In this document: piece by piece, positions 25,393 through 44,848 of the stretch
Numbering within the stretch: position 1 is the first letter of the stretch
Layout: each line of letters starts with the position of its first letter
Assembly: GCA_008375315.1 (NCBI GenBank)
Contig: CP032507.1
Location: 2,874,071 to 2,938,070, forward strand
Reading direction: 5' to 3'
DNA from: Ectothiorhodospiraceae bacterium BW-2
GTDB taxonomy: Bacteria; Pseudomonadota; Gammaproteobacteria; Thiohalomonadales; Thiohalomonadaceae
Length of the DNA: 64,000 bases
Translations under genes and position numbers: made by a program
The notes under the pieces: model-generated
What the model saw: only the letters and a program-made list of their open reading frames with translations
Databases searched by the model: none
Told to the model about the DNA's origin: nothing

Positions 25393-25406
25393 GAGGTATT
25401 TAGAAC

Positions 25407-29118: not shown

Positions 29119-29691
29119 TTGGAACAGTTTTTTAGTCTAGTCTTCTCTTTTCCTACATTGATTTTTACTCTGCTGCTGCTATTTGCCTGCGGCTACTGGC
29201 TCTTGGCGGTTATCGGACTACTCGATATCGATATAGGAGGCTCTGAGCTGGGCGGGCTGGGGGGGGTGATGGTTACGCTAGGGTTAACGGGGGTACCGTT
29301 ACCGCTTGTGCTGACGCTGCTGTTTCTGTGGGGCTGGGTGGTGAGTTTTCTACTCTGTTATACCTTTGCCGCTTTGCCGGCACTGATCTGCCTAATCGTT
29401 GCTATGAGTGCCGCACTGCCGTTGACGGTGGTGATAGTGAAACCGTTAGCGCCGCTGTTTCGAGCGCTGCACGCAGCCCCTGAGCCAAAGCAGTTTGTCG
29501 GCAACATTTGTACCGTTCGCAGTGGCCGTGTCGATGCTAGCTTCGGTGAAGCGGTCATTACTATGAATGGAGCGGAGATTGTGCTACAGGTTCGAAGTGA
29601 AGCACATCTGTTTCAGCGTGGCGATAAGGGGCTGATTTTTGAGCAAGAAGAGCCGAAAAATATCTACTGGATTGCACCGTTAGAGGAGTAG
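29119..29691 (+). CDS. YqiJ/NfeD-like inner-membrane protein (flotillin partner, DUF1449-type)
   Basis: TTG start 1 nt after the trmO stop. The N-terminal half has four predicted TM helices. The C-terminal soluble domain (about 70 aa; VGNICTVRSGRVDASFGEAVITMNGAEIVLQVRS) resembles the NfeD OB-fold. Same relative position as E. coli yqiJ upstream of yqiK. Confidence 0.7.
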   Translation: MEQFFSLVFSFPTLIFTLLLLFACGYWLLAVIGLLDIDIGGSELGGLGGVMVTLGLTGVPLPLVLTLLFLWGWVVSFLLCYTFAALPALICLIVAMSAALPLTVVIVKPLAPLFRALHAAPEPKQFVGNICTVRSGRVDASFGEAVITMNGAEIVLQVRSEAHLFQRGDKGLIFEQEEPKNIYWIAPLEE

Positions 29692-29697
29692 GTTAAT

Positions 29698-30936
29698 TTG
29701 CCGATTACTAAGTCACTGGGTATTATATTTTTAGTCGTTTTTATTTTTTCAGTGCTGCTGTTTATACTCATATCCGATACAGTGATGGATAGAACGATAG
29801 GCGACATTGCGATTAAGGAGGAGACCCATACCTCGAAGCTGATTTTTCAGAGCCTCTACTCAGTGATGAGACGCGGATGGTCGCAGCAGGATATTGTTCA
29901 AATTGTAGGTAGCATACAGGAGACAATTCCCGATATTCGAGTTAACCTCTATCGCAGTGATGCTGTGGTTGAGCAGTATGGCGTAGCGCCGACAGAGTTT
30001 CATCCTCAGCAGTCAGATAGCCTCATTGAGCAGGTGTTCGCTTCTGGCCGGAGTCAACTGGTGGTCGAAAATGATCAGTTGCGTTTTGTGTACCCGATAA
30101 TAGCTGAAGCAGTGTGCTTAGGTTGCCATGTGACCGTTGAGGTAGGAGATCGACTCGGTTTGATAGAGATATATCAATCGACTGCCAAGCTGCGGGTACC
30201 GTTAGAGTATGCGGTTTTAAATATCATCTACATTTTTTTAAGCGCTGCGATTTTGCTTGGGATATCGCTATTTGTCGCTGTCCATATTTTTCTGGTTAAA
30301 CCGGTAAAACAGCTCGCTAGGGAGATAAATACCCTCTCTGAAAGTCACGATATCTCTCGCCGCCTTCCAGCGATGAAAACCGCTTTTTATGAGATTAAGT
30401 GGCTCCGTAAACAGTTTAATCTACTCCTAGGTCGAGTTGAGCTGTCGCTGCGGGAGTTAAGAGATCGCTCTGAGCGCGATCCCTTGACTGGGCTCTATAA
30501 CCGCAGAAAATTTGATGAGCTGGCTCTACAGGAGTTGCATCGTAGTCAACACCACCAGCACTCATTTGCGCTATTGATGGTCGATTTAAACCGCTTTAAG
30601 CCGATTAATGATACTTATGGCCATGAGGCCGGCGATGAGCTGCTTTGTGCCGTCGCTAGTGCTATGAGTCATGCGCTGAGGATGGAGGAGGTGATCTCCC
30701 GCATCGGTGGTGATGAGTTCTTGATACTGGTGCCTGAGTGCGGCACCGAGGAGGCGACTGCATTGTCTGATAAGCTATCTGCCTGTATTGAGCAGATGGC
30801 GGTGAAATATAAGGGAGATCACTTATCGGTTGGGTGTAGCCTTGGCGTTGCTATCTATCCGCATGATGGCCTGACGATGGCTGAACTTATACGAAAAGCC
30901 GATCAGAGAATGTATCGAAATAAACGGGATCGATAG
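29698..30936 (+). CDS. Membrane diguanylate cyclase (GGDEF) with a periplasmic CxxCH sensor domain
   Basis: TM1 (aa about 8-28), a periplasmic region of about 140 aa containing CLGCH (nt 30115-30129), TM2, then a GGDEF domain. The GGDEF domain has an intact active site (RIGGDEF) and upstream motifs (DPLTGLYNRR, LLMVDLNRFKPINDTYGHEAGDELL). TTG start. Confidence 0.85.
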   Translation: MPITKSLGIIFLVVFIFSVLLFILISDTVMDRTIGDIAIKEETHTSKLIFQSLYSVMRRGWSQQDIVQIVGSIQETIPDIRVNLYRSDAVVEQYGVAPTEFHPQQSDSLIEQVFASGRSQLVVENDQLRFVYPIIAEAVCLGCHVTVEVGDRLGLIEIYQSTAKLRVPLEYAVLNIIYIFLSAAILLGISLFVAVHIFLVKPVKQLAREINTLSESHDISRRLPAMKTAFYEIKWLRKQFNLLLGRVELSLRELRDRSERDPLTGLYNRRKFDELALQELHRSQHHQHSFALLMVDLNRFKPINDTYGHEAGDELLCAVASAMSHALRMEEVISRIGGDEFLILVPECGTEEATALSDKLSACIEQMAVKYKGDHLSVGCSLGVAIYPHDGLTMAELIRKADQRMYRNKRDR

Positions 30937-30991
30937 AACGATAGGGCAAGATCATTTTTTCTTTTTAACGACTATTTTGGGAGATGTGGAG

Positions 30992-33010
30992 ATGTTAGAT
31001 AGCTCAATTGCTATGCTGGTGATAACAACACTAGCGATTCTATTTGGGGTGCTCATTGTGATGCTACTGTTGATTAAGGCGTTCTATGTCAAAGTTAAGC
31101 AGGGGGAGGCATTGATTAAGAACGACACTAGCGCCACACCGAAGGTCTATTTTACCGGAGCGATGATACTACCGGTGATCCATAGTCGCGAAGTGATGAA
31201 GATTTCGGTCATTACCCTCGAAATCGACCGCCGAGCCAAAGATGGCCTGATCTGCAAAGATAATCTTCGTGCCGATATTACCGTCGCCTTCTATCTACGG
31301 GTGAATGAGACCGCCGCCGATGTACTAAAGGTAGCCAAGGCGGTCGGGGTAGAGCGAGCATCGAGTAAAGCGGCAGTGAATGAGCTCTTTAACGCCAAAT
31401 TCTCGGAGGCGTTAAAGACCGTCGGCAAGAAGATGGAGTTTTTAGAGCTATTTGAGAACCGAATTCAGTTTCGGGATCAAATTATCGAAGTGATAGGTCA
31501 GGATCTGAACGGCTATGTGCTCGAAGATGTGGCGATCGACTATCTGGAACAGACGCCAAAAACCGCCCTCGATGCCAATAATATCCTCGATTCGTTCGGG
31601 ATTCGTAAAATTACCGAAATTACCGCCGGCCAAAATATCGAAACCAATCGCTTAGAGCGTGACGAAGAGCTAGAGATGAAGCGCAAAAATGTCACCACCG
31701 AGGAGGCGATGCTAGAGCTAGAGCGACAGCAGGCCGATGCCATCGCACGGCAAAAGCGGGAGATAGGGACGATTCAGGCGCGAGAGGAGGCCGAGACCCA
31801 AAAAGTGATCGAAGAGGAGCGCCGCAAGGCGGGCGAAGCGAAACAGGAGACCGATGAGGCGCTACAGATTCGGGAGGAGAACAAACTGCGTCAAGTCGAA
31901 ATTTCGCGTAAAAATCGTGAACGAGCCATCGCTATCGAAGAGGAGAAGGTGCTCAAAGCGCGGGCGATGGAGCAGGTTAGCCGCGAGCGCGAAGTCGAAC
32001 TACAGCGAATTGAGGCCGAAAAGGCGCTAGAGATCGAACGAAAATTAATTGCCAGCACCCTTAGTGAACGGATTGCGGTCGAAAAGAGGGTCGCTGAAGA
32101 GGAGGAGCGGATTAAGGAGGTGCGTCAAATTTCCGAAGCCGAGCGAGCCAAACAGGTTCGACTGCTACAGGCCCAAGCCGAGGCGCAAGAGGCGTTAGAG
32201 AAGGAGGTACGCCAAGCGGAGGCCGATGCCCAAAAGGCGATCCATAGAGCCAAAGAGATAAACACCATCGCCCAAGCGGAGCTAGAGGCATCGGCTAAAG
32301 ATGCCGAAGCGAAGATTAAACGGGCCGAGGGGACACAGGCGGAGCAGGCCGCGAGCGGTTTAGCCGCAGCGCGGGTACAGGAGGCGAAGGCACTAGCACT
32401 AGAGAAGGAGGGCCTTGCTAAGGCGGCGGCAGATGAGGCGATTGGCATGGCCGCTGTACGAGTGACCGTCGCCGAAATAGAGGCACAAGAGCGCCAAGGG
32501 TTAACTGAGGCGAAAGTGCTAGAGGCGAGAATGGCCGCCGAAGCGCAGGGGGAAGAGAGCAAAGGGCGAGCGCTCGCAACAGCCGAGCGAGAGCGGGGGC
32601 TAGCGAGTGCCGATGTCATTCGTGAAAAGGCGAAGGCCGAAGCCGAAGGGTTAGCGGAGAAGTTCGAGGCGATGGCGCAGATGAGCCCCGAAGCGCACCA
32701 ATTTGAAGAGCTGCGAATGAAGCTCGAAATGGCCTTTGAGGAGACGATGGCGACGATTGAGGCCAATAAGAGTATCGCCGTTGAGCAAGCTGAGGTGTTA
32801 GCCAAAGCTCTTGAGGGGGCTAAAATCGAGATTGTCGGGGGGGATGGTGACTACTTTAACAACTTTGCTAAGGCGCTCTCGGTCGGCAACGCGATGAATG
32901 GTGCCCTCAGTAAGAGCCCGATGCTGCAAGCGGCGCTCAACCGTTTAGTCTCACTAGGGGAGAGGAGCTTAGAGTCATCATTAGAGTCATCAAAAGAGCG
33001 GCAAGAGTAA
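30992..33010 (+). CDS. Flotillin-family SPFH/Band-7 protein (YqiK/FloT-like)
   Basis: N-terminal TM anchor. SPFH domain alignable to E. coli YqiK (VITLEIDRRAKDGLICKDNLRADITVAFYLRV..., FRDQIIEVIGQDLNGYVLEDVAIDYLEQT). Long Ala/Glu/Lys/Arg-rich coiled-coil flotillin tail. The track starts at TTG 30977; the ATG at 30992 with a GGAG RBS is preferred. Confidence 0.85.
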   Translation: MLDSSIAMLVITTLAILFGVLIVMLLLIKAFYVKVKQGEALIKNDTSATPKVYFTGAMILPVIHSREVMKISVITLEIDRRAKDGLICKDNLRADITVAFYLRVNETAADVLKVAKAVGVERASSKAAVNELFNAKFSEALKTVGKKMEFLELFENRIQFRDQIIEVIGQDLNGYVLEDVAIDYLEQTPKTALDANNILDSFGIRKITEITAGQNIETNRLERDEELEMKRKNVTTEEAMLELERQQADAIARQKREIGTIQAREEAETQKVIEEERRKAGEAKQETDEALQIREENKLRQVEISRKNRERAIAIEEEKVLKARAMEQVSREREVELQRIEAEKALEIERKLIASTLSERIAVEKRVAEEEERIKEVRQISEAERAKQVRLLQAQAEAQEALEKEVRQAEADAQKAIHRAKEINTIAQAELEASAKDAEAKIKRAEGTQAEQAASGLAAARVQEAKALALEKEGLAKAAADEAIGMAAVRVTVAEIEAQERQGLTEAKVLEARMAAEAQGEESKGRALATAERERGLASADVIREKAKAEAEGLAEKFEAMAQMSPEAHQFEELRMKLEMAFEETMATIEANKSIAVEQAEVLAKALEGAKIEIVGGDGDYFNNFAKALSVGNAMNGALSKSPMLQAALNRLVSLGERSLESSLESSKERQE

Positions 33011-33016
33011 ACTGCC

Positions 33017-36000
33017 ATGAGCTTTGAGGCAGCAGCGAATCGAGCCGAGAGCGCGGTAGCCGCCGGTGGCGCTTATGAGATCGTTCGTAAACGGCTACTA
33101 CAGCAGGCAGGAGAGCTACAGCAGCAGATTGAGGCACTCAACCGCGCCCGTCTAGCCGAGTTCGGCTCCACCGACATGAAGGTGGTTGGCCGAGCGCGAG
33201 TGCGTACCGACAACAGCGCGATCGCCCGCGATGTGGTGCGGGTGGGGGAGTATCTTCTGCTAGGGTGTAACCTCTATCTAGGGCTCAAGCAGCAGCTAGA
33301 GGTGGCAGATATTTTTCTGCTATTTCGGCTGTTAGAGCAGCCTGATGGGATTGAGCTAGAGCCGGTCGATATTCGCCACACCTTTTTACACGATGAGCGG
33401 TTTGTGAATGAGTTTAACGAGCTGCACACCTACTACCGTGATACCCATCTCAGTCAGTTAAGGGTGATAGATGGCCGGCTACTCGCTAGCTTTCAGATGG
33501 GGGAACGGTTAAGCGATATTCGAGTCTTTCGCTGGCAACTATCGGCCGATGGGAGAGAGATTACCTATATCGATAATCGTGGCGAGCGCGATATTGCGCT
33601 ACCGCCGCCATACGATTTTGAGTGGTTAGTCGCCGGTCATGAGGCGCGGGTGGAGGGGCGATATCCCCATATCAATATTCTCGATACCCTATTTGTCGAT
33701 ACCCTTGGCGGCCAGTTAACGGTTAAAGTCGAAAACAATACCGCCTCAGGGGAGGGAATCTTCTCCGAACCGGTCGAAGATAGCCACCAGTCACTCGATG
33801 ATGCCGAGTTTCACTACGCCGCAGTCGGGCAGCTCATTCTATTAAAAATTCGTCCCTATCAGGAGCCAAAATGGCGCTATCTGCTCTTTAATCGATTGAC
33901 ACAACAGGTTGTGCGCCTTGATGCGATTGGCCACTGCTGTCGGCAACTACCGGAGGATCACGGACTTATCTTCCCCGGCGGTCTCTATCTACAAAGCGGC
34001 GAGTACAAACAGTTCGATTTAGAGCTACCAAAGGGGCGAGAGCTGGTTTTTAAACGCATGATTCGCAGCCCTAACGGTGAAGATGTGCTCTACCTCTTCT
34101 ACGAGCCCTATGCGGGGCTAGTGGCGCTCTACCCCTATAACTTAATCGATAAACAGCTACGCACCCCCCTCTATGCCCACGGCTATGGCCTATTTGAAGA
34201 TGGCCGCATGGTGCTCTTCTCTGCCGAGGGGGAGCCGACCCGCGTCCATCCGATGCAGATTTGGCAGACGCCGTTTGTCTCTGATCTTTTTGCCAGTCGC
34301 CAACCGGTATCGCAGTCGCTCTACGGTAAGATAGGCAATGCGGAGTTAGTGCGCGGCATTTCGGAGCTATTAAGCGTGGTGAAACTGGCCACGCGGGATG
34401 AGGTTCGCGCCGCCCACTACCACGAGCTGATTAAGATCAGCTCGACCCTCTTTGATCGCTACTACTGGCTCGCAGAGGCGCAGCACCAGCCGATAGCCAC
34501 CCTACTACACCAGCTACTTGAGAGTGCCGAGCTCATTCTCGATGAGTATGAGAAGGTCGAGACGATTCAAAAGAGCTCGCAAGCGGCGCTACAGCAGGCT
34601 AAGCATGAGCTAAAAACGCAGCTACGACAGCTAGAGCCGGAGGGGTGGCACACCCCACAGCCCTTCGTCGAGGGGTTAGCGGCACTGAGGCGGATGCGGG
34701 GCCATCTACTGACGATTCGCGGCTATCGCTATATCGATACCGATCAGATCGATCAACTCACCACCGAGCTGCAACAGGCGCAGCAGCAGTTAGCGACAGA
34801 GGCGGTCGATTTTCTGGCCAAAGAGGAGGCCCTAGCCCCCCTCTACAGTGAGCTAACACAGCTAAATCGCACCGCTGAGCAGAGCCGCAGTGGTGCCGAA
34901 CTAACGCCGCTACTAGCGCGGCTAGCGCAGCTTGGGGAGGGGCTCGATCTGCTGACCGAAACCATGAGCGCCATGACCGAGGCCGACCCTAATGTAAGAG
35001 CGGCCATTATTGAGGCGATTTCGGCGCTATACGCCCAGCTCAATCAGAGCAGAGCGAGGATCGATAACCGGCACCAATCGTTAGGGCTAGCTGAGGCCGA
35101 AGCGCAGTTTGGTGCCCGTTTTAAACTCCTCTCCCAAAGTGTCACCAACGGCCTATCGATGGCCACGACACCTGATAGGAGCGATGAGCAGCTAGCGCGA
35201 ATGATGGCGCAGCTACAGGAGCTGGAGAGTCAATTTGGCGACTTTGAGCGCTTTTTAGGCGATATTCTCGACAAGCGCGACGAAATTGTCGAGATCTTCG
35301 AGAGCCATAAGCAGCAGCTTATAGAACAGCGGCAGCGGCGAGCGCAGACGCTATTTGATGCCGCTGGCCGAATGTTAGCCACCCTTTTGCGCCGTAGTCA
35401 GAAGATAGCCGACGAAGATGAGCTTAACGCCCTATTTGCCGCCGATCCATTAGTGGAGAAGATTCGGCAGCTCATTGAGCAGCTACATGGACTTGATGAC
35501 TCGGTGCGGGCTGAGGAGCTAGAGTCGCAGTTTAAAACGGGGCGGGATCAGGCGCTGCGTTCGCTACGGGATCGGCGTGATATCTACGAAGAGGGGGGAG
35601 CGGTTATCAAATTGGGGCCCCGACACAAATTTAGTGTCAACACCCAGCCGCTCGATTTAACGATTTTGCCGCGTGGGCAGCGGCTCTACTACCACCTAAC
35701 CGGCACCGAGTTTTATGAAGCGGTCGGTGAGCCGATGCTAGATCAGGCCAAAGCCTACTGGCAGATGGCACTGCCGTCAGAGGATCACAACCTCTATCGT
35801 GGCGAGTATCTAGCCGGGCTCATGCTTAGCGCCGCAGAGCAGCAGCACCCCTTCACGCTAGTGCAGCTCTCTGAGTGGATAAATAGTCCGGCAGAGCTGT
35901 TGCAGCAGGTACGCCAATTTGCCGCCCCGCGCTATAAAGAGGGGTATGAGCGCGGTATTCACGACCACGATGCGGCGCTCATTCTTACCGCCTTGGTACC

Positions 36001-38209
36001 GAAACTGGTGGGGGCGGCGCAGTTACGCTTCGATCCAGAAGCACGAGCGATGGCACTACTCTACTGGGGCTCCCAACAGCGACTAGCGACCGAGCTACCG
36101 CTTAAAGCGCGAGCGGCGGCGCAGCTAAATCATCAGCTAGGCTATCGCGAAGCGCGACAGCAGCTACAGCAGCAGCTAGCGGGCGAATTAGAGGCGTTTT
36201 TGACAACCCGTTTACCCCAGTGTAGCCATGAAGTGGCACTGCGTGCCGCCGACTACCTGCTAACCGAGCTGTCGGTGGAGCAGCCGGAGTTTAGCCAGAG
36301 TCGTGAAGCGGTCGAGCTATTAGAGCGGCTACGATTAGAGCTAGGTGCCGCCTCCTCATGGCAGCTACTAGAGCAGCAGCTACGGCAGTGGCGGGAGGAG
36401 CCGCTAACCGCCTTTCAGTGGGTACGCTTCTGGTGCCGTGGTGTGGTAGAGCAACACCAGCTAAGTACGCTGGAGGAGGTGGTCGATGAGGTAGCGGCCG
36501 ATCTCGTCTGTGCTCACCAGCTACGACTGCGGCCCCACAGCTTTGATCTCAGTTACCGCATTGAGGGGCTATTAGGGAGTCATGAGACTCTAACCGAGGG
36601 GCGGTTAGAGGGGCGGCTAGATCGATTTTTGCTCCGCTTTTCGCGCCACCAGCAGGTGATCTTGCCGGCGTGGAGCGGCTACCAAACGCTACGACAGCAG
36701 GTGATAGAGCAGCAGAAGCGCCGCCTGCGGCTGGCGCAGTACCAATCGAAACCGCTCGCCTCTTTTGTCCGTAACCGACTGATTAACGAAGCCTATCTGC
36801 CCATTATCGGTGATAATTTAGCCAAACAGATGGGAACTGTCGGCGAGGGGCGTCGTAGCGATCTTATGGGGCTACTGATGGTGATCTCCCCGCCCGGTTA
36901 CGGTAAAACCACCTTGATGGAGTATGTTGCTAACCGACTTGGGCTGATCTTTATGAAGATTAACTGCCCCTCCATCGGGCACCAGATCGATGCGCTCGAT
37001 CCGGCGCAGGCACCGAATGCCACCGCCGCCCAAGAGCTGGAGAAGCTCAACTTAGCACTAGAGATGGGCAACAATACCATGCTCTATCTGGACGATATTC
37101 AGCACACCAATCCGGAGTTTTTACAAAAATTTATCTCGCTATGCGATGCCACTCGCCGTATTGAGGGGGTGTGGCGTGGCGAGACGAAAAGCTACGATCT
37201 GCGCGGTAAGAAGTTCTGTGTGGTGATGGCGGGTAACCCCTATACCGAAAGCGGCGAGCTGTTTAAGATCCCCGATATGTTGGCCAATCGCGCCGACATC
37301 TACAATTTGGGGGATGTCTTAAGCGGTATGGATGAGATATTTGCCCTAAGCTATATCGAAAACTGCCTCACCTCTAATGCGGTATTAGCACCGTTAGCAA
37401 ATCGTGAGATGGCCGACTTCTACCGCTTTATCGCCCTCATTCGGGGCGAAGAGGTCGCCGATAGTGACTTTAGCCACCCCTATAGCGGTGCTGAGATTGG
37501 GGAGATCGTCGCGACTTTAAAACGGCTCCAACAGGTGCAGCAGGTGGTGTTGCGGGTTAATCGAGCCTATATCAGCTCCGCTGCGCAGGATGAGCGCTAT
37601 CGAACCGAACCGCCCTTTAAGCTCCAGGGGAGCTACCGCAATATGAACAAAATGGCCGAAAAGATCTCAGCGGTAATGAGCGATGAGGAGCTACAACAGC
37701 TCATTGCCGACCACTATCGGGGCGAAGCACAGCTACTGACGGGGGGAACAGAGGCTAATCTGCTCAAACTAGCCGAGCTTCAAGGTAGCCTCACTCTCGA
37801 ACAGCAGCAGCGCTGGCAGGCGATTAAGGCGGAGTTTCAGCGTCAGCAGAGTCTAGGTGGCGAGGGGGAGGTGGGCGATAAGATCGTGGCGCAGCTCTAC
37901 GATCTGGTCGAGCAGGTTAAACAGCTTCGTGAGCCGCTTAACCACACGGTAGCCCCACCGCTCGAACTCCCCCCCCCGAACTACACCATAGAGATCAACA
38001 CCCCCCCTCCGGCGGGGGTCGAAGCGACTCTACAGGCGATGGTCGCTCTGCTGGAAAACACTCTGTTCCCACTGGTGAAGGCGATGGACGGCAAACTTAA
38101 CCTAGATCTAAAAACCAACGCCTATTTGCAAAATATCTTGCGGCAGATGGAGCGGTTAAGGAGCGAGATCCATGGAAAACCAAAGGGGCCAGAGTCGATA
38201 GCCCCCTAA
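33017..38209 (+). CDS. Giant (1730 aa) protein with a C-terminal MoxR/dynein-like AAA+ ATPase module. No known family recognised.
   Basis: A single uninterrupted ORF starting 7 nt after the flotillin stop. Walker A VISPPGYGKTT (nt about 36896-36913, aa about 1294). Walker B NTMLYLDDIQH (nt about 37079-37096). Sensor-1 VVMAGNPYTES, which is MoxR 'ATQNP'-like. Arg-finger region ANRADIY. The upstream about 1250 aa is largely alpha-helical/coiled-coil with a non-helical region at aa about 60-450. No TM segments. Confidence 0.85.
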   Translation: MSFEAAANRAESAVAAGGAYEIVRKRLLQQAGELQQQIEALNRARLAEFGSTDMKVVGRARVRTDNSAIARDVVRVGEYLLLGCNLYLGLKQQLEVADIFLLFRLLEQPDGIELEPVDIRHTFLHDERFVNEFNELHTYYRDTHLSQLRVIDGRLLASFQMGERLSDIRVFRWQLSADGREITYIDNRGERDIALPPPYDFEWLVAGHEARVEGRYPHINILDTLFVDTLGGQLTVKVENNTASGEGIFSEPVEDSHQSLDDAEFHYAAVGQLILLKIRPYQEPKWRYLLFNRLTQQVVRLDAIGHCCRQLPEDHGLIFPGGLYLQSGEYKQFDLELPKGRELVFKRMIRSPNGEDVLYLFYEPYAGLVALYPYNLIDKQLRTPLYAHGYGLFEDGRMVLFSAEGEPTRVHPMQIWQTPFVSDLFASRQPVSQSLYGKIGNAELVRGISELLSVVKLATRDEVRAAHYHELIKISSTLFDRYYWLAEAQHQPIATLLHQLLESAELILDEYEKVETIQKSSQAALQQAKHELKTQLRQLEPEGWHTPQPFVEGLAALRRMRGHLLTIRGYRYIDTDQIDQLTTELQQAQQQLATEAVDFLAKEEALAPLYSELTQLNRTAEQSRSGAELTPLLARLAQLGEGLDLLTETMSAMTEADPNVRAAIIEAISALYAQLNQSRARIDNRHQSLGLAEAEAQFGARFKLLSQSVTNGLSMATTPDRSDEQLARMMAQLQELESQFGDFERFLGDILDKRDEIVEIFESHKQQLIEQRQRRAQTLFDAAGRMLATLLRRSQKIADEDELNALFAADPLVEKIRQLIEQLHGLDDSVRAEELESQFKTGRDQALRSLRDRRDIYEEGGAVIKLGPRHKFSVNTQPLDLTILPRGQRLYYHLTGTEFYEAVGEPMLDQAKAYWQMALPSEDHNLYRGEYLAGLMLSAAEQQHPFTLVQLSEWINSPAELLQQVRQFAAPRYKEGYERGIHDHDAALILTALVPKLVGAAQLRFDPEARAMALLYWGSQQRLATELPLKARAAAQLNHQLGYREARQQLQQQLAGELEAFLTTRLPQCSHEVALRAADYLLTELSVEQPEFSQSREAVELLERLRLELGAASSWQLLEQQLRQWREEPLTAFQWVRFWCRGVVEQHQLSTLEEVVDEVAADLVCAHQLRLRPHSFDLSYRIEGLLGSHETLTEGRLEGRLDRFLLRFSRHQQVILPAWSGYQTLRQQVIEQQKRRLRLAQYQSKPLASFVRNRLINEAYLPIIGDNLAKQMGTVGEGRRSDLMGLLMVISPPGYGKTTLMEYVANRLGLIFMKINCPSIGHQIDALDPAQAPNATAAQELEKLNLALEMGNNTMLYLDDIQHTNPEFLQKFISLCDATRRIEGVWRGETKSYDLRGKKFCVVMAGNPYTESGELFKIPDMLANRADIYNLGDVLSGMDEIFALSYIENCLTSNAVLAPLANREMADFYRFIALIRGEEVADSDFSHPYSGAEIGEIVATLKRLQQVQQVVLRVNRAYISSAAQDERYRTEPPFKLQGSYRNMNKMAEKISAVMSDEELQQLIADHYRGEAQLLTGGTEANLLKLAELQGSLTLEQQQRWQAIKAEFQRQQSLGGEGEVGDKIVAQLYDLVEQVKQLREPLNHTVAPPLELPPPNYTIEINTPPPAGVEATLQAMVALLENTLFPLVKAMDGKLNLDLKTNAYLQNILRQMERLRSEIHGKPKGPESIAP

Positions 38210-38215
38210 CCGCCG

Positions 38216-40621
38216 CTACTGCTCAAAGACGATAGCCGCCACCTCCCTATAGTGTTTAGCGAAGTGGGCGGTGATGCCGTCACGAATGTAGTCGGGTAGC
38301 TCTTCGAAATCGCCGCGATTGGCCTCGGGGAAAATGAGCTCCACAATACCGATACGGCGGGCGGCAATCACCTTCTCCCGAATGCCGCCGACCGGTAGGA
38401 CTTGGCCGGTGAGGGTTAGCTCGCCGGTCATCGCTAGTTTGCGAGCGATCTTGTCGCCTTTGGCTAGCGAGAGTAGTGCCGTGGCCATGGTGATACCGGC
38501 ACTAGGGCCATCTTTGGGGGTCGCTCCTTCCGGCACATGGAGGTGGACAAAGGCCTCATTAAAGAACTTCTCATCGGCTCGATAGGTGTTGAGGTTAGCT
38601 GCAATATAGCTGTAGGCGATCTCGGCCGATTCGCGCATCACTTCGCCGAGCTTTCCGGTCAGTTTAAAGCCACGATTTTTGGTATGGACTTGGCTCGCCT
38701 CAATACTGAGCGTCGCTCCGCCCATCGCTGTCCAAGCGAGACCGGTGACCACACCGATCCCTTTAATCGGACTCTCTTTAGTGAAGGTAGGTTTGCCTAG
38801 ATAGTGGGTTAAATTTTTATCGGCGATTTTAATCGGGGTCTCGCTCTCCTCGACTATCTCCCGCGCCGCTTTGCGGATAATTCGTCCTAGCTGCTTCTCC
38901 AGATTACGCACGCCGGCTTCGCGGGCGTAGCCTTCGATAATTTTCCGAATCGCGGTAGGGGTAATTTTAATCTCCTGTCTGGTAAGACCATTGCGCTCTA
39001 ATTGTCGTGGCCAGAGGTGGTGTTTGGCGATCGCCAGCTTCTCTTCGGTAATATAGCCAGAGAGGCGAATGACCTCCATTCGATCCAGTAGTGGACCGGG
39101 AATGGTGTCGAGTTGATTAGCAGTGCAGACAAACAGCACCTTGGAGAGATCGAGCCGAATGTCGAGATAGTGATCTTGAAACTCGCTATTTTGCTCCGGA
39201 TCGAGAACCTCTAGGAGCGCCGAGGCCGGATCACCATGGTAGGAGGCACCGATTTTGTCGATCTCATCGAGCATAATCACCGGATTATCGGTACCACACT
39301 GTTTGAGGGCGTGGACGATTTTGCCCGGTAGGGCACCGATGTAGGTACGGCGATGGCCCTTTATTTCGGCCTCATCGCGCATCCCTCCGACCGAGAAGCG
39401 GTAGAATTTGCGTCCTAGGGTGTTGGCGATGGAGCGGCCAACAGAGGTCTTACCCACGCCGGGGGGGCCGATGAGCAGAATAATCGACCCGGAGATCGAC
39501 CCTTTTAGTTTACCGACGGCAAGAAACTCTAAGATGCGATCTTTCACATCTTCTAGCCCATCATGTTCACGGTTCAATACCCGCACAGCCCGTTTCAGAT
39601 CGAGTCTATCTTGGCTAACATTGCCCCACGGCAGCGAGGTGATCCAGTCGAGGTAGTTGCGGGTGACATTAAACTCAGCTGAACCGGACTCTAGCATTGC
39701 TAGCTTATCGAGCTCCTCTTCGACGACCTTTTGCGCCTCTTCCGAGAGGGTGAGCCTCTCTAGTCGCTGTTGAAACTTCTCGATTTCGGCGGTGCGATCA
39801 TCCTTCTCTAAGCCTAACTCTTTTTGGATCTCTTTTAGCTGCTCTTTGAGAAAGAAGCGGCGCTGGTGGGCATTCATATTCTCCTCTACCCGTTCGCGAA
39901 TACGGCTCTGAATTTTGGCTAGCTCCAGCTCTTTTTTGAGTAGGACTAGCACCTTCTGCATTCGCTTATCGAGATCAAATCTATCTAACACCTGCTGTAG
40001 CTCGTCGGCGGAGGCGGAGGTGAGGGTGGCGGCAAAGTCGGAGAGGGGCGAGGGTTCGTTAGGGCCAAAACGGTTTAAGAAGAACTTCATCTCTTCGCTA
40101 TAGAGCGGGTTAAGGTGCATGAGCTCTTTGAGGGTGTTAATAATCGCCATCGCATAGGCGCGAACCTCATCGCTCGGTTTCTGCTCTTTAGGGGGGTACT
40201 CGACTCGCACTCGGTAGGGGGGGGTGTCGTTGAGCCATTTGACGATCTTAAAACGGGTAATCCCTTCGGCGATAAACTGCATCTTACCATCAGAACGACT
40301 CGGGCGGTGGAGCCGTACTAGCGTCCCTACTTCGGCCATCTGTTCCGGGGAGGGGAGCGTTTCGTTATCGAGCTCCTCTTTAACTAATAGCAGACCGGCG
40401 CTTCGGTGTTCGGTTTCGCCTATCGCCTCAATGGTGCTCAGCCAAGGCTGCTCCTCCATCAGCAGTGGCGAGGCTTGGGCGGGGAAGAAGGGGCGCTCAA
40501 ATAGGGGTAAGAGGTGGAGCTCTTCGGGGTAACGCGCCTCAGAGACGGTGATGGCGTTACTAAGCTCCTCTTGGGAGAGCACTTCGGCGTCGAGTAGTTC
40601 CTGTTCTGTTTCGTCTGACAT
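38216..40621 (-). CDS. lon: ATP-dependent Lon protease (LonA type)
   Basis: Full-length alignment to E. coli Lon: LON N-domain, AAA+ (ILLIGPPGVGKTS, Walker B MLDEIDK), and protease domain with PKDGPSAG (catalytic Ser) and the downstream Lys. Confidence 0.95.
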   Translation of the reverse strand: MSDETEQELLDAEVLSQEELSNAITVSEARYPEELHLLPLFERPFFPAQASPLLMEEQPWLSTIEAIGETEHRSAGLLLVKEELDNETLPSPEQMAEVGTLVRLHRPSRSDGKMQFIAEGITRFKIVKWLNDTPPYRVRVEYPPKEQKPSDEVRAYAMAIINTLKELMHLNPLYSEEMKFFLNRFGPNEPSPLSDFAATLTSASADELQQVLDRFDLDKRMQKVLVLLKKELELAKIQSRIRERVEENMNAHQRRFFLKEQLKEIQKELGLEKDDRTAEIEKFQQRLERLTLSEEAQKVVEEELDKLAMLESGSAEFNVTRNYLDWITSLPWGNVSQDRLDLKRAVRVLNREHDGLEDVKDRILEFLAVGKLKGSISGSIILLIGPPGVGKTSVGRSIANTLGRKFYRFSVGGMRDEAEIKGHRRTYIGALPGKIVHALKQCGTDNPVIMLDEIDKIGASYHGDPASALLEVLDPEQNSEFQDHYLDIRLDLSKVLFVCTANQLDTIPGPLLDRMEVIRLSGYITEEKLAIAKHHLWPRQLERNGLTRQEIKITPTAIRKIIEGYAREAGVRNLEKQLGRIIRKAAREIVEESETPIKIADKNLTHYLGKPTFTKESPIKGIGVVTGLAWTAMGGATLSIEASQVHTKNRGFKLTGKLGEVMRESAEIAYSYIAANLNTYRADEKFFNEAFVHLHVPEGATPKDGPSAGITMATALLSLAKGDKIARKLAMTGELTLTGQVLPVGGIREKVIAARRIGIVELIFPEANRGDFEELPDYIRDGITAHFAKHYREVAAIVFEQ

Positions 40622-40714: not shown

Positions 40715-42721
40715 TTAACGCCGTCTGCTGCGTCTGTTAGGCAAAATTGTCCTCTGGCGAGAGTGGTGACGGTGAGGGGGCTCGGTTTTTTTGGGGGGCG
40801 GTACTAGGTGCTGTTTACCGTGACCTATGAGATCGGCACGGCCTAGCTGTTGCAGCGCTTGACGAATGATCGGCCAGTTTTTGGGGTCGTGGTAGCGCAG
40901 CAGCGCCTTTTGTAGTCGCCTCTCGGTGAGCTTTTTGGCGCTATAGACGGTGTCGGGGTGATCGAGTTTTTTCAGTGGGTTGTAGCCGCTGTGATACATC
41001 GCGGTGGCGAGTGCTAGGGGGGCGGGTAGAAACGCCTGTACCTGATCGAGGCGAAAGCGATGCTGTTTAAGCCAGAGCGCTAGTGTGACCATCTGTTCGG
41101 TATCGCTGCCCGGGTGGGCGGCGATAAAGTAGGGGATGAGATACTGCTCTTTGCCCGCCTCTTTAGAGAAGCGATCGAATAGGCTCTTAAATCGGTAGTA
41201 GCTGCTTAAGCTCGGCTTCATCATTTTAGATAGCGTTGCACTCTCGCTATGCTCAGGGGCAATTTTTAGGTAGCCGCCGACATGGTAGGTCACTAGCTCT
41301 TTGATATAGGCGGGGCTAGTGACCGCCAGATCGTAGCGCACCCCGCTAGCGACCATCACCCGTTTAATGCCATCGATCGCTCGACTCGCGCGATAGAGCT
41401 CAATCAGTGCCGAGTGATCCGTGTTTAGGTTGGGACAGATGTCAGGATAGAGGCACGATAGTCGTCGGCATGAGGCCTCTATCTGCGGGGAGCGGCAGTG
41501 GAGGCGATACATATTGGCGGTCGGGCCGCCGATATCGGAGATGGTGCCGGTAAAGCCGGGCACCTCATCGCGAATGGTTTCAATCTCCCGCATAATGGAG
41601 CCTTGGGAGCGATTTTGGATAATGCGCCCCTCATGTTCGGTGATGGAGCAGAAGGTGCAGCCGCCAAAGCAGCCGCGCATGATATTAACCGAAAAGCGGA
41701 TCATCTCGTAGGCGGGAATGCGGGCCTCTCCATAGCGGGGGTGGGGGCGGCGGGTGTAGGGGAGTTCATAGATCCTATCGAGCTCATCGGTGGTGAGCGG
41801 TATGGGGGGGGGATTGACTACTAGGAGTCGATTTTGGTGCGGTTGCAGCAGGCGACGGGCGTTATGGGGGTTGGTCTCTAGGTGGAGCCAACGCGAGGCT
41901 TGGGCGTAGAGGCGTCTATCGCTACGAACCTGCTCATAAGAGGGGAGCTGTAGTGCGATGTGAGGGTGGTGAGCTGCCGCCGGCCCCATGCTATCGGGGT
42001 CGTTTACTGTGTGAATTTGCCACTCATTGGGCGCTTTTTTACAGACATAGGCGCTGCCACGAAGGTCACGAATGGTATGGATAGGCTCTTTACGCGCTAA
42101 GCGATGGGTTAACTCCACCACCGCCCGCTCTGCATTGCCGTAGAGTAGTAGATCGGCGCGAGTATCGAGCAAAAGGGAGCGCCGAACCTTCTCCGACCAG
42201 TAGTCGAAGTGGGCAAAGCGGCGCAGACTCGCCTCAATGCCGCCAATGACAAGCGGTATCTCGGGGAACGCCTCTCGGCAGCGCTGGGCATAGACAAGGG
42301 TGGCTCTATCTGGGCGGGCATTGGCTGCGCCGTTGGGGGTATAGGCGTCATCACTACGGGGGAGACGATCGGCGGTATAGCGATTGACCATCGAATCCAT
42401 GTTACCGGCGGTAATACCGAACCAGAGGGTCGGGGGGCCGAGCGTTTGAAAGGCGCTGCTATCTTGCCAGTTAGGTTGAGGAATCACGCCGACCCTAAAG
42501 CCGTGCGCTTCGAGGAGGCGGCCGATGAGGGCCGCCCCGAAGCTAGGGTGATCGACCAGAGCATCGCCTGAGATAATAATGACATCACAAGCCTCCCAGC
42601 CGAGCTGATCCAGCTCCTCCCGAGTGGTCGGTAGCACGGGGGCCGGTAGCAGCCGTTTAGCCCAGTAGGGGCGGTAGCTTGTAAAGAGATCGGGCGCTGT
42701 CAGTGGTGTGGTAGCCATCAA
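40715..42721 (-). CDS. ygiQ: YgiQ-family radical SAM protein (UPF0313)
   Basis: End-to-end similarity to E. coli YgiQ ([27 protein letters not shown], radical-SAM core [27 protein letters not shown]). Basic C-terminal tail. Confidence 0.9.
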
Positions 42722-42724
42722 TCA

Positions 42725-44848
42725 CTAAAACGAGTTAAAGTCATAATCCATCTGTCGGCTCGGTTTTTGAATAAAGAAACCGACGATATAGTTGATTCCG
42801 GTAGCGTAGAGCCGAGAGAGAGTCTGCGGGTTTTCGACTGCGTTGGCAATGACTTGAATGTCGTATTGCTGCGCGTGTTGAACGATATTGTTAATCTGTT
42901 CGACCGCCTGAGGACTCTCTGCGAGTTGGTTAATCAGCCCTTGGGATATTTTGATATAGCACGAGTCGTAGTGTTGCAAAATAGTGAGATGGTTACTCTG
43001 TTCGCCAAATTGGTTGATCGCCAAGGCTATTTTGAGCTTCTCTAGCATGGTACGAAACTGCTTCACCTGCTTTAACTGCTCAGTCGCTACCTGCTCGCTT
43101 ATCTCAAAGACCAGCTCCCAAGGTCGCAGTTGAGCGCTCTTGAGTCGGGGTAGCATCCAGTGGAACAGTTTGGTCTGATTGACTAGGCTCTGCTCAGAGA
43201 GTTTGATAAAGAGGCGAGGATACTGCTGTCGCTGGCGCTGCTCTTTAAGCACGAGTAGCGCGTGGGCTATCACCCAGCGATCGACGATCTCAGAGAGACC
43301 ACAGTGGTGCACTGCGGCAAAAAACTCATTGGCAGCGACAAACTCCTGCTCCCCTCGTAGATCGGGCATCCGTAACATGACCTCATAGGTGGCGTGGGGA
43401 TCGTCATTGAGGCTAATAATCGGCTGATAGACTAGCAGCAGTCGGTTATTTTGTAGCGCTTGGCGAATTTCGATGGCCAGCAGTTTCTCCTTTTCGCGCT
43501 GGGTGAGTTGATCGACATCGGGGGTATAGAGCTCATAGCGATTGCCGCCGGCGGCGGTGAGCTGCTCTAGTAATCTATCGGCTTCGCCAATGACCTGCTG
43601 GTAGTTCGACTCTTTGCCGTGATAGGGGGTGATGGCGATGGAGAAGGTGGTCTGGGTAGTACGCCCCTCTAAATCAAAAATGGTGTCACGACCGGTAGCT
43701 GTCAGCAGGGCGGCCACTTTTTCGCTGCGATGGGCATCGACCCCGGTCAGAGAGAGGATAAAGCCGCTAGCCCCGAATCGAGCTAGTAGCAGCGGTTCAC
43801 TCTCCTCGGTGCGTAAAATAAGCTGTTTTATCGAGGAGGAGTCGAGCTCTTGGCTTAAAAAGTGGTAAATTTCACTCATTAAGGCCTCGATGGCCGAAAA
43901 GCCGAGTCGTTGGCGCAGATCGTTAAGATTGTCGGGGGAGATGAGCAGCAGATGCCCCGAGCGGTTCTGTTGGTGCACGATAGCGCGAAACTGCTCCACA
44001 AAGTATTGCTGAGTGTAGGCACCGGTGACGCTGTCGCGCTGTTTAGCCTCCTCTAGCCGTCGCACTAGCTCCTGACTATCCTCTTTGTTGTAGAGCACAA
44101 TCTGAGTACAGGCCTCCCCTTCGTAAGAGATGCGAGAGAGGGAGAGTTGTAGCGGAAACGATTTGGTGGCCAGATCGATCCCTTCAGCCTCAAACAGCTC
44201 CTCTATCGGTCTGCCCTGCTGAAACTGACGCAGATAGCTTTTGAAGCTGTTTTGGGAGTCGGCATGGAGCATATCGAGAAAGGGGACACCGAGTAGATCA
44301 TCGAAATCGTCGTAGCCAAACAGGGTAAGATAGCTGTCGTTAGCATAGATGTGCATCCCCTCATCAATATAGGCGATCGCCTCTTTCGATTGGTTGGCGA
44401 GAATTTGGGCCCGATGGTTCGACTCTTGCAGCAGCGTGCGGCAGTGGAGTAGCTCATTATGAAACCGAGTGGCGGCGCTCTCGCGCCGAAAGATATGGCT
44501 GGCTCGGGACGGATTGGCGATATCGATAATATCTTTGGCTCCCCCTTCGAGCAGATCATCGAGATTGATGCGCACTGTCGCCATATTCGCCACGATGACG
44601 ATCCCTAGCTGGGGCTGCTGCTCTAACACTGTGCGCATCACGGCGATAGGCTCGAAGTGTTCGCACTCGGGAGTGAGCAGGAGTAGATCCCACGCCTTTT
44701 GCCGTAGCAGTGTGGTGAGCTGTGCAAACGAGTCAACGCTTTCGGTATGAATCGCCAGCCCCTGATTGCGTAGCTGGTTAGCTACCGCTTCACCATGGTT
44801 GGCAGAGTCGTCGATGACGACAATTTCCAGTATCTCTTCCAGAGCCAT
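42725..44848 (-). CDS. FimX-like c-di-GMP signalling protein (REC, PAS, degenerate GGDEF, EAL with an EVM motif)
   Basis: N-terminal receiver (VVIDDS...DLLLLT). PAS region (IDEGMHIYANDSYLTLFGY). The GGDEF position reads RFGASGF, which is degenerate. The EAL domain has EVMLR in place of EALxR (YQPIISL...YEVMLRM), echoing the EVL motif of the Pseudomonas/Xanthomonas c-di-GMP receptor FimX. Stop is 4 nt before the ygiQ start. Confidence 0.8.
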   Translation of the reverse strand: MALEEILEIVVIDDSANHGEAVANQLRNQGLAIHTESVDSFAQLTTLLRQKAWDLLLLTPECEHFEPIAVMRTVLEQQPQLGIVIVANMATVRINLDDLLEGGAKDIIDIANPSRASHIFRRESAATRFHNELLHCRTLLQESNHRAQILANQSKEAIAYIDEGMHIYANDSYLTLFGYDDFDDLLGVPFLDMLHADSQNSFKSYLRQFQQGRPIEELFEAEGIDLATKSFPLQLSLSRISYEGEACTQIVLYNKEDSQELVRRLEEAKQRDSVTGAYTQQYFVEQFRAIVHQQNRSGHLLLISPDNLNDLRQRLGFSAIEALMSEIYHFLSQELDSSSIKQLILRTEESEPLLLARFGASGFILSLTGVDAHRSEKVAALLTATGRDTIFDLEGRTTQTTFSIAITPYHGKESNYQQVIGEADRLLEQLTAAGGNRYELYTPDVDQLTQREKEKLLAIEIRQALQNNRLLLVYQPIISLNDDPHATYEVMLRMPDLRGEQEFVAANEFFAAVHHCGLSEIVDRWVIAHALLVLKEQRQRQQYPRLFIKLSEQSLVNQTKLFHWMLPRLKSAQLRPWELVFEISEQVATEQLKQVKQFRTMLEKLKIALAINQFGEQSNHLTILQHYDSCYIKISQGLINQLAESPQAVEQINNIVQHAQQYDIQVIANAVENPQTLSRLYATGINYIVGFFIQKPSRQMDYDFNSF

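What the first reader, a model, noticed from the sequence alone, without database searches (positions are those of the whole stretch)
33017..38209. 1730-aa ORF with a single C-terminal MoxR/dynein-like AAA+ module and about 1250 aa of unassigned upstream sequence
The only recognisable domain is an AAA+ module at aa about 1280-1480. Its elements are a Walker A GYGKTT, a Walker B LYLDD, the MoxR-like sensor-1 'AGNP', and an arginine-finger region NRAD.

Everything N-terminal is long helical or coiled-coil sequence, plus a region of about 400 aa that is non-helical and possibly beta-rich (aa about 60-450). There are no TM segments and no protease, nuclease or other effector motifs.

A C9 homopolymer (37965-37973) lies inside the C-terminal Pro-rich segment LELPPPNYTIEINTPPPAG.

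I cannot assign this architecture to a characterised family. If the ORF is intact, it is a candidate new giant AAA+ mechanoenzyme.
Basis: seen in the sequence. Interest (0 to 1): 0.8.

Follow-up and report, generated by a model that had tools for sequence, protein, structure and literature searches.

The report
Flotillin-linked giant AAA+ ATPase (BacE family)
The 1730-residue gene is real and intact, but it is not a new architecture: it is an ordinary member of a widespread, already catalogued yet biochemically unstudied family of giant ATPases (Pfam DUF3686, 'DNA repair ATPase', P. aeruginosa BacE/PA3728) that almost always sits directly behind a membrane flotillin gene.

Summary
The C9 tract is 4 nt off (37969-37977) and does not break the frame, because residues downstream of it are conserved in 30 homologues.

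The claim of about 1250 aa of unassigned sequence is wrong. Pfam DUF3686 covers aa 33-483 (E 1e-187) and DUF7902 covers aa 604-687.

More than 4000 full-length homologues exist (52-61% identity), which NCBI names 'DNA repair ATPase'. The P. aeruginosa orthologue is PA3728/PA14_16190, named BacE in 2024. It is co-transcribed with bacABCD: a CesT-like protein, PspA, a short NfeD and a flotillin.

In 71-73 of 74 species genomes with upstream sequence, a YqiK-type flotillin gene lies directly upstream, preceded by a short NfeD/YqiJ-like membrane protein. The window has the same triad. This operon was described computationally by Ravi et al. 2024.

The N-terminal domain models confidently as a beta-rich domain with weak propeller resemblance. 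The AAA+ core is divergent, and MoxR-type ATPases are only marginally its nearest structures.

The best reading is a cytoplasmic ATP-driven remodeller of flotillin/NfeD (and PspA) membrane assemblies, inferred from synteny only. It is a new member of a known but uncharacterised kind, of modest interest.

The parts
29119..29691 (+). Short NfeD/YqiJ-like membrane protein of 190 aa. It has about 3 N-terminal TM segments and a C-terminal soluble domain. It is the homologue of P. aeruginosa PA3730/BacC.
   Evidence: It is 34% identical over 210 aa to PA3730. TM segments were found by hydropathy. A homologue sits in this position in 70 of 74 loci. There is no significant BLASTP match to E. coli YqiJ itself and no Pfam hit. 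PA14_16160 is called a 'short NfeD' in PMC13086221.
29698..30936 (+). Diguanylate cyclase of 412 aa: TM, a periplasmic segment of about 135 aa with a CLGCH (CxxCH) motif, a second TM, then a GGDEF domain. It is inserted between the NfeD-like and flotillin genes and is not part of the conserved triad.
   Evidence: Pfam GGDEF E 1e-45. TM segments lie at about aa 1-34 and 167-204, CLGCH at aa 140 and GGDEF at aa 337. None of 70 related loci has a gene in this position; the largest gap is 455 nt.
30977..33010 (+). YqiK-type flotillin (SPFH) protein of 677 aa with one N-terminal TM segment. It is the homologue of PA3729/BacD/PaFlo3. Its stop codon lies 6 nt before the giant ORF.
   Evidence: It is 28% identical over 483 aa to E. 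coli YqiK, E 4e-35, and 63% identical to PA3729. It has one TM segment. A homologue lies directly upstream on the same strand in 71 of 74 loci, or 73 after inspecting L034 and L079. Pfam Band_7 does not hit this copy but does hit the distant orthologue in L084.
33017..38209 (+). Giant cytoplasmic AAA+ ATPase of 1730 aa, DUF3686/BacE family (orthologue of PA3728/PA14_16190).
33113..34465 (+). DUF3686 domain (aa 33-483). A helix (aa 19-49) leads into a beta-rich, weakly propeller-like module (aa 55-417), followed by helices.
34826..35077 (+). DUF7902 (aa 604-687), inside the long central region (aa about 500-1240), which I could not model.
   Evidence: Pfam E 1e-21.
36749..37786 (+). AAA+ core plus lid (aa about 1245-1590), the most conserved part of the protein. 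Motifs: Walker A SPPGYGKTT (36887-36913), Walker B LYLDD (37082-37096, DD rather than DE), a predicted pre-sensor-1 beta-hairpin (aa 1381-1394), sensor-1 AGNP (37229-37240), arginine-finger candidate R1425 in NRAD (37286-37297), and sensor-2 candidate R1541 in LQGSYRNM.
   Evidence: The motifs are near-invariant in 68 full-length cluster representatives. Secondary structure comes from the AlphaFold2 model, pLDDT 71. Pfam AAA and AAA_5 both score about 28 bits.
37969..37977 (+). C9 homopolymer encoding PPP in a poorly conserved Pro-rich linker. A second C7 run lies at 38001-38007.
   Evidence: The frame is kept, because residues after both runs (for example A2 positions V460, P464, P466, G467, L472, M490, D491, T500, H501) are invariant or at least 90% conserved in 30 homologues.

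Best explanation
The ORF encodes the cytoplasmic AAA+ subunit of a conserved three-gene membrane module: a short NfeD/YqiJ-like membrane protein, a YqiK-type flotillin (SPFH) and the DUF3686 ATPase. In many bacteria the module is extended by a CesT-like protein plus PspA (an ESCRT-III homologue) upstream and a phospholipase-D-family protein downstream. In P. aeruginosa this is the bacABCDEF operon.

The likely mechanism is as follows. The flotillin and NfeD proteins build an oligomeric scaffold on the inner face of the cytoplasmic membrane. The soluble giant protein docks on that scaffold, or on PspA polymers, through its N-terminal beta-rich domain and long helical middle. It oligomerises through its AAA+ domain and uses ATP binding and hydrolysis to assemble, disassemble or reshape the scaffold during envelope stress.

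What is shown: the domain composition, strict conservation of the catalytic motifs, gene order across phyla, and co-transcription and co-regulation in P. aeruginosa (from the literature).

What is inferred: physical interaction with flotillin or PspA, oligomeric state, the remodelling activity and the stress role. The absence of an aromatic pore loop and the invariant DD Walker B suggest a MoxR/RuvB-style remodeller or a slow switch rather than a Clp/Vps4-style polypeptide threader. This last point is inference only.
For: **Family membership**
- DUF3686 matches at E 1e-187, DUF7902 at E 1e-21, and AAA is present.
- Homologues cover 98-100% of the query at 52-61% identity.

**Synteny**
- In 71 of 74 species-level genomes with at least 2.8 kb upstream, a flotillin gene lies directly upstream on the same strand. 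In 70 it is preceded by the NfeD-like gene.
- PspA plus DUF2170 lie upstream in 35 of 69 loci. PLD lies downstream in 22 of 69.
- The triad persists in the most distant members (31% identity; L083-L085, with PspA or TelA adjacent). It also persists in Streptomyces and Deinococcus.
- In the window the intergenic gaps are 1, 6, 40 and 6 nt, which suggests one transcription unit.

**Partners**
- The upstream protein matches E. coli flotillin YqiK at E 4e-35.
- The giant protein has no TM segment, whereas its two partners are membrane proteins.

**Catalytic motifs**
- They are nearly invariant across 68 divergent full-length representatives.

**Literature**
- RT-PCR shows the bacA-F genes are one operon, and BacE (PA14_16190) rises 8.9-fold with BacB, BacC and BacD in a bacA mutant (PMC10948618).
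- PA3728-PA3732 are co-induced by phage infection (PMC12041424).
- Ravi et al. 2024 describe the same operon and propose ATP-dependent or chaperone-like membrane-complex dynamics (PMC11237479).
- SPFH-AAA+ partnerships are established elsewhere, for example HflK/C-FtsH (established knowledge; cited in PMC13086221).
Against: - No experiment links any family member to flotillin or PspA physically or functionally.
- A paFlo3 (flotillin) deletion has only marginal phenotypes in PA14 (PMC13086221).
- The window has no PspA or DUF2170 gene anywhere in its 64 kb, so the PspA link is optional.
- Many flotillin operons, including E. coli yqiJK, work without this ATPase.
- The AAA+ clade is unresolved, and no canonical pore loop is evident. 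The kind of mechanical work it does is therefore unknown.
- The C-terminal model is only moderate (pLDDT 71, pTM 0.42).
Confidence: 0.55

Rival explanations
1. It is what the database label says: a DNA-repair ATPase, an SMC/RecN/SbcC-like long coiled-coil protein acting on DNA.
For: Pfam calls DUF3686 'ATPase involved in DNA repair' and NCBI names the family 'DNA repair ATPase'. The weak best sequence hits include RuvB's P-loop (NCBIfam E 0.009; PDB E 0.064; E 2.6e-4). recJ lies two genes downstream in P. aeruginosa.
Against: - The ATPase is a single C-terminal AAA+ domain, not a split ABC/SMC head.
- There is only one GK[ST] motif, at aa 1296, and no LSGG signature.
- Pfam finds no SMC, RecN, nuclease or DNA-binding domain.
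- recJ adjacency is confined to 6 Pseudomonas loci out of 80.
- The conserved neighbours are all membrane or envelope-stress proteins.
- I found no paper with experimental support for the label.
- The name most likely came from spurious coiled-coil similarity to COG0419/COG0497. This is my inference and is not tested.
Confidence: 0.04
2. It is the NTPase of an anti-phage or inter-bacterial conflict system. A giant sensor ATPase with a beta-propeller would control a phospholipase-D-family effector at the membrane.
For: PA3728-PA3732 are induced in all phage-infected P. aeruginosa samples (PMC12041424). A PLD/HKD-family gene follows the ATPase in 22 of 69 loci. Large AAA+/propeller proteins are common in conflict systems (general knowledge).
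Against: - No PADLOC model hits any of the four proteins.
- No homologue occurs in 50,697 phage genomes. Only 13 of 72,556 plasmid records carry one, and most of those are megaplasmids or chromids.
- The gene is core-like: one 90% cluster holds 3222 P. aeruginosa sequences, in a stable chromosomal context (23 similar places not shown).
- The window copy has no PLD gene. Instead, Lon converges 6 nt downstream.
- PspA-type operons are classic phage-induced membrane-stress responses without being immunity systems (established knowledge).
Confidence: 0.1
3. It works at the membrane with flotillin but not as a remodeller. It would be a MoxR-like maturation or insertion chaperone for a membrane client held inside the flotillin microdomain, or a nucleotide-dependent scaffold or switch.
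Confidence: 0.2
4. The long ORF is an assembly or frameshift artefact that fuses separate genes, for example at the C9 tract.
For: A C9 and a C7 homopolymer lie in the 3' part of the ORF.
Against: More than 100 listed homologues of 1740-1810 aa align over 98-100% of the ORF. Seventy-three complete genes in other genomes have a median length of 1781 aa. Conserved residues continue after both tracts.
Confidence: 0.01

Closest known systems
P. aeruginosa BacE (PA3728 / PA14_16190) and the bacABCDEF operon; Pfam architecture DUF3686 + DUF7902 + AAA; NCBI 'DNA repair ATPase'
   Same: It is an orthologue: about 53% identity over 99% of the length (P0114). The domain order and the invariant AAA+ motifs are the same. 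The upstream NfeD-like (BacC) and flotillin (BacD/PaFlo3) genes are the same.
   Different: The window lacks bacA (DUF2170/CesT-like), bacB (PspA) and bacF (PLD). It carries a GGDEF cyclase gene between the NfeD-like and flotillin genes, which none of about 70 other loci has. No sigma-54 promoter motif lies upstream. This matches the 'abbreviated operon' of Ravi et al. 2024 (PMC11237479).
HflK/C-FtsH and related SPFH-AAA+ protease assemblies (prohibitin with m-AAA, SLP2 with YME1L)
   Same: An SPFH-family scaffold is genetically coupled to an AAA+ ATPase at the cytoplasmic membrane. An NfeD-type partner accompanies the SPFH protein.
   Different: The giant ATPase has no protease domain and no TM anchor, and it is about 1700 aa long with a beta-rich N-terminal domain. 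The flotillin is YqiK-type, not HflK/C. No physical complex has been shown.
Vps4 / ESCRT-III (and PspA as the bacterial ESCRT-III homologue)
   Same: An AAA+ ATPase is encoded next to a polymer-forming membrane-remodelling protein: PspA lies in 35 of 69 related loci. The P-loop half of the AAA+ domain is most similar in sequence to classical AAA proteins (Rix7/p97, E 2e-7).
MoxR-family AAA+ (RavA, CbbQ, NorQ) and AAA_5 dynein/midasin modules
   Different: There is no VWA partner, no helix-2 insert in the model, a DD Walker B, and a single module embedded in a 1730-aa protein. The margin over other AAA+ clades is negligible.

Membership tests
DUF3686 / BacE ('DNA repair ATPase') family | N-terminal DUF3686 domain matched end to end above Pfam's gathering score | tested here: met
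   PF12458 scores 624 bits against a cut-off of 25. It covers aa 33-483 and profile positions 1-448 of 448.
DUF3686 / BacE ('DNA repair ATPase') family | Central DUF7902 and a single C-terminal AAA+ module, collinear with full-length family members | tested here: met
   PF25472 scores 77 bits. AAA and AAA_5 match at aa 1288-1414. Homologues cover 98-100% of the query, and their precomputed Pfam domains include PF12458, PF25472 and PF00004, usually with PF07728 and/or PF13401.
DUF3686 / BacE ('DNA repair ATPase') family | Family-invariant motifs SPPGYGKTT, hhhhDDIQH, AGNPYTE, PDMLANRAD and LQGSYRNM | tested here: met
   All are present in the window protein, and each is conserved in at least 64 of 69 aligned sequences.
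DUF3686 / BacE ('DNA repair ATPase') family | Gene order: NfeD/YqiJ-like, then flotillin, then ATPase, on one strand | tested here: met
   The window has 29119-29691, 30977-33010 and 33017-38209 in this order, with an extra GGDEF gene between the first two. The order holds in 70-73 of 74 other genomes.
MoxR-family AAA+ | Significant match to MoxR-specific models or structures, clearly ahead of other AAA+ clades | tested here: inconclusive
MoxR-family AAA+ | Helix-2 insert plus pre-sensor-1 beta-hairpin | tested here: inconclusive
   The model shows a hairpin at aa 1381-1394 before sensor-1. It shows only a loop plus a long helix between beta2 and Walker B, with no helix-2 hairpin. Model confidence is moderate (pLDDT 71).
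MoxR-family AAA+ | Cognate VWA/MIDAS-domain partner encoded alongside | tested here: not met
   No VWA domain is found in the window neighbours or in the related loci whose genes carry Pfam or product annotation.
Classical AAA clade (Vps4, p97, FtsH) | Second region of homology with two arginines, an aromatic pore loop 1, and no pre-sensor-1 hairpin | tested here: not met
   Only R1425 is present in NRAD. The conserved segment after beta2 (N-C/G-P-S/A-I/L-G-H...SLDP) has no aromatic residue. A hairpin is predicted. Profile similarity to Rix7/p97 is limited to positions 14-86.
SMC/RecN/SbcC-type DNA-repair ATPases | Split ABC head: N-terminal Walker A, with the C-terminal signature motif and Walker B separated by a coiled coil | tested here: not met
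   The single P-loop lies at aa 1291-1299, there is no LSGG motif, and Pfam finds no SMC_N, AAA_23 or RecN domain.
Known anti-phage defence systems (PADLOC-DB 2.0) | Match of the ATPase or its neighbours to a defence-system protein model | tested here: not met
   None of the four proteins matches any family at E 0.01 or better. The family is absent from the phage collection.

The most novel reading that the evidence does not exclude
The DUF3686/BacE ATPase would be the dedicated ATP-driven assembly and disassembly motor for bacterial flotillin cages and, where co-encoded, for PspA (ESCRT-III-like) polymers. That would make it a bacterial functional counterpart of Vps4 built on a different AAA+ lineage. 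In this genome it would be wired to c-di-GMP signalling through a haem-type sensor diguanylate cyclase inserted into the operon.
Probability: 0.2. Interest if true: 0.7.

Novelty: new member of a known kind. Interest (0 to 1): 0.3.

Why it matters
For this window the result is mainly corrective. The gene is a normal orthologue of a catalogued family, and the 'DNA repair' label attached to that family has no support from domain content or gene context.

The family itself remains a real gap. It is a 1600-2100 aa AAA+ protein found in Pseudomonadota, Actinomycetota, Bacteroidota, Deinococcota and Gemmatimonadota. It is locked to a flotillin/NfeD pair and often to PspA, and it has no structure, no biochemistry and no mutant phenotype.

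How bacterial flotillin and PspA assemblies are turned over is an open question. This ATPase is the obvious candidate, and P. aeruginosa PA3728 is a tractable test case.

Tried and rejected
- **PADLOC scan** of the ATPase and its three upstream proteins: no hit.
- **PDB by sequence.** The single sequence and the whole-family profile gave only insignificant P-loop matches. A focused AAA+ profile reached classical AAA proteins, but only over the P-loop half. It cannot assign a clade.
- **Pfam and PDB on the 677-aa upstream protein** gave nothing. Its flotillin identity had to be shown by direct comparison with E. coli YqiK.
- **The 190-aa protein against E. coli YqiJ** was not significant. It is assigned through PA3730 and through position only.
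- **Sigma-54 promoter motif search**: not enriched, and no site upstream of the cluster.
- **Sigma-70 promoter and terminator scans** were uninformative.
- **Exact-sequence look-up of the window protein**: not on record, so the source organism was not identified.
- **Full-text searches** for DUF3686, PF12458 and 'DNA repair ATPase' together with flotillin found nothing.
Full report
**1. Observation**

The window has an ATG-initiated ORF at 33017..38209 (+) of 1730 codons. A script located GYGKTT at aa 1294, LYLDD at aa 1356, AGNP at aa 1405, NRAD at aa 1424 and the Pro-rich LELPPPNYTIEINTPPPAG at aa 1649.

The C9 run is at 37969-37977, 4 nt from the stated position. A C7 run follows at 38001-38007.

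Hydropathy finds no TM segment: the maximum 19-residue Kyte-Doolittle mean is 1.44. The protein has a single GK[ST] motif and no ABC signature.

**2. The N-terminal 1250 aa are not unassigned**

Pfam matches DUF3686 ('ATPase involved in DNA repair') over aa 33-483, end to end, at E 1.2e-187. It matches DUF7902 over aa 604-687 at E 1e-21. Generic AAA and AAA_5 match at about 28 bits each over aa 1288-1414.

A search of the 5.8-billion-protein collection returned 4188 significant homologues among the 8000 candidates scored. The best 120 are 1566-1808 aa long (all but one at least 1738 aa), cover 88-100% of the query (98-100% for nearly all) at 51-61% identity, and share its Pfam domains. NCBI calls them 'DNA repair ATPase'.

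An exhaustive phmmer search with aa 1-510 found 709 clusters at 50% identity. Full-length members are 1590-2120 aa, down to 31% identity. Named members come from these groups:
- Gamma- and Betaproteobacteria
- Myxococcales
- Longimicrobium (Gemmatimonadota)
- Flammeovirga, Niabella and Hymenobacter (Bacteroidota)
- Streptomyces and Nonomuraea (Actinomycetota)
- Deinococcus

**3. Intactness**

Thirty homologues align across the whole ORF. Residues after both C tracts are invariant or at least 90% conserved. Seventy-three complete genes in other genomes have a median length of 1781 aa. A fusion or frameshift artefact is excluded. The Pro-rich linker and C-terminal tail are simply the least conserved part of the family.

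**4. Gene context**

The P. aeruginosa orthologue P0114 (a cluster of 3222 sequences) lies in this gene order:
- DUF2170
- PspA_IM30
- a 213-aa protein
- a 688-aa protein
- the ATPase
- PLDc_2
- YaeQ
- RecJ
- an M4-family peptidase

From my knowledge of the PAO1 map (recJ = PA3725, the M4 peptidase = lasB = PA3724), this is PA3732 to PA3724, which makes the ATPase PA3728.

I fetched 80 loci from one genome per species and scored their ORFs by BLASTP against the window and P. aeruginosa neighbours:
- Of 74 loci with at least 2.8 kb upstream, 71 have the flotillin homologue directly upstream on the same strand. L034 has an insertion, and in L079 the ATPase ORF call is truncated but the flotillin gene is present. 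That gives 73.
- 70 have the NfeD/YqiJ-like gene before the flotillin.
- PspA and DUF2170 are present upstream in 35 of 69 loci.
- A PLD-family gene follows in 22 of 69.

The most distant members keep the triad, with PspA or TelA next to it. So do Streptomyces ('flotillin family protein' then 'DNA repair ATPase') and Deinococcus.

The window carries the same triad: 29119-29691 (190 aa, about 3 TM segments), 30977-33010 (677 aa, one TM segment) and the ATPase. The 677-aa protein is 28% identical to E. coli flotillin YqiK over 483 aa, E 4e-35. Gaps between consecutive genes from trmO to the ATPase are 1, 6, 40 and 6 nt.

**5. What is already published**

- Mace et al. 2008 defined the bac cluster PA3729-PA3732 (PMC2587700).
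- Wallart et al. 2024 showed by RT-PCR that PA14_16140-16200 form one operon, bacABCDEF. They named PA14_16190 BacE and found it 8.9-fold up in a bacA mutant, together with BacB, BacC, BacD and BacF (PMC10948618).
- PA3728-PA3732 are induced in phage-infected cells (PMC12041424).
- PA14_16180 is the SPFH protein PaFlo3, with the short NfeD PA14_16160. Its deletion has marginal phenotypes (PMC13086221).
- Ravi et al. [quoted passage not shown] They note that abbreviated versions without PspA are widespread (PMC11237479).

I found no paper that tests the ATPase itself.

**6. Structure**

*C-terminal 530 aa.* The model is moderate (pLDDT 71, pTM 0.42). It shows the AAA+ strand order and a beta-hairpin (aa 1381-1394) immediately before the sensor-1 strand. 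There is no hairpin in helix 2.
- Foldseek returned MCM, NorQ, Lon, ClpB, RuvB and CbbQ at E 4e-5 to 1e-2 with low TM-scores.
- A 15-sequence profile of the AAA+ region hit classical AAA proteins best (Rix7 at E 2e-7, p97 at about 1e-5), but only over alpha0 to beta2.

The module is therefore a divergent AAA+ that probably belongs to the pre-sensor-1-hairpin group. 'MoxR-like' is the marginal front-runner and is not established. The MoxR hallmark VWA partner is absent.

*Motif conservation.* Across 68 full-length representatives these motifs are nearly invariant: SPPGYGKTT, hhhhDDIQH, AGNPYTE, PDMLANRAD and F.LQGSYRNM. The last is a plausible sensor-2. The enzyme is therefore under selection as an active or at least nucleotide-binding ATPase. 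Its Walker B is DD rather than DE throughout the family.

**7. Mechanism**

The only strong functional evidence is genomic. The soluble giant ATPase is tied to two membrane proteins that form SPFH/NfeD assemblies, and frequently to PspA.

I therefore favour an ATP-driven assembly, disassembly or remodelling role on these sub-membrane scaffolds, with confidence 0.55 for this general statement. A non-threading, MoxR-like chaperone or switch is the main variant.

The 'DNA repair' label fails every structural test I could apply, and its only contextual support (recJ) is confined to Pseudomonas.

A defence-system reading has little support: no PADLOC hit, no phage copies, rare on plasmids, and core-like conservation.

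**8. Verdict**

The interpretation as a candidate new giant AAA+ mechanoenzyme is not, because the protein is an orthologue of a catalogued family that has already been discussed and is still uncharacterised. The one window-specific oddity is the GGDEF gene inserted inside the triad.

Noticed in passing
window 29698-30936 (+): A 412-aa diguanylate cyclase sits between the NfeD-like and flotillin genes. It has an intact GGDEF motif, two TM segments and a periplasmic segment of about 135 aa carrying CLGCH, a c-type-haem CxxCH motif. None of about 70 related loci has any gene there; the largest gap is 455 nt. GGDEF genes do lie next to the triad in Deinococcus (L087) and near it in L010, L015, L039, L075 and L084, which may be chance.
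   Followed up: partly
window 38183-38218: The giant ORF and the convergent Lon protease gene (38216-40621, -) end only 6 nt apart. The only terminator-like hairpin for lon (38207-38183, minus strand) lies inside the last codons of the giant ORF. Lon adjacency is not seen in any of the 80 related loci.
   Followed up: partly
window 24919-27404 (+): Two genes resemble adenylylsulfate (APS) reductase subunits. The beta-like subunit has APS-reductase_C and 4Fe-4S domains. The alpha-like subunit has an FAD_binding_2 domain. This suggests a sulfur-oxidising or sulfate-reducing host. The best homologues of the giant ORF come from Pseudomonadales and other Gammaproteobacteria metagenome-assembled genomes at only about 60% identity, and the exact protein is not on record.
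   Followed up: partly
window 30977-33010 (+): This YqiK-type flotillin gets no Pfam Band_7 or Flotillin hit even at E = 10, and no PDB sequence hit. It nevertheless aligns with E. coli YqiK at E 4e-35. The P. aeruginosa orthologue likewise has no precomputed Pfam family. This flotillin subfamily is poorly covered by current profiles.
   Followed up: yes
window 37082-37105 (aa 1356-1363) and 68 homologues: The Walker B motif is hhhhDD followed by IQH in every family member, instead of the usual DE. From memory this resembles DnaA's LIDDIQF and may indicate slow or switch-like hydrolysis.
   Followed up: partly
window 35600-36000 (aa about 862-990): Two strongly conserved, non-repetitive blocks lie in the supposedly coiled-coil middle of the protein: IKLGPRHKFSVNTQ.LDLT..PR and PRYKEGYE.GIHDHDAALIL. 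They suggest an additional globular domain that no Pfam model covers.
   Followed up: no
window 42725-44848 (-) and 40715-42721 (-): A PAS-GGDEF-EAL protein and a radical-SAM protein (Radical_SAM_N plus DUF3362) lie just beyond lon. With the inserted cyclase, this makes two c-di-GMP genes within 15 kb.
   Followed up: no
L083 13001-14221; L084 12902-13648: In the most distant family members, the gene next to the ATPase is TelA (toxic-anion resistance) or a convergent PspA. The envelope-stress theme therefore persists outside Proteobacteria.
   Followed up: partly
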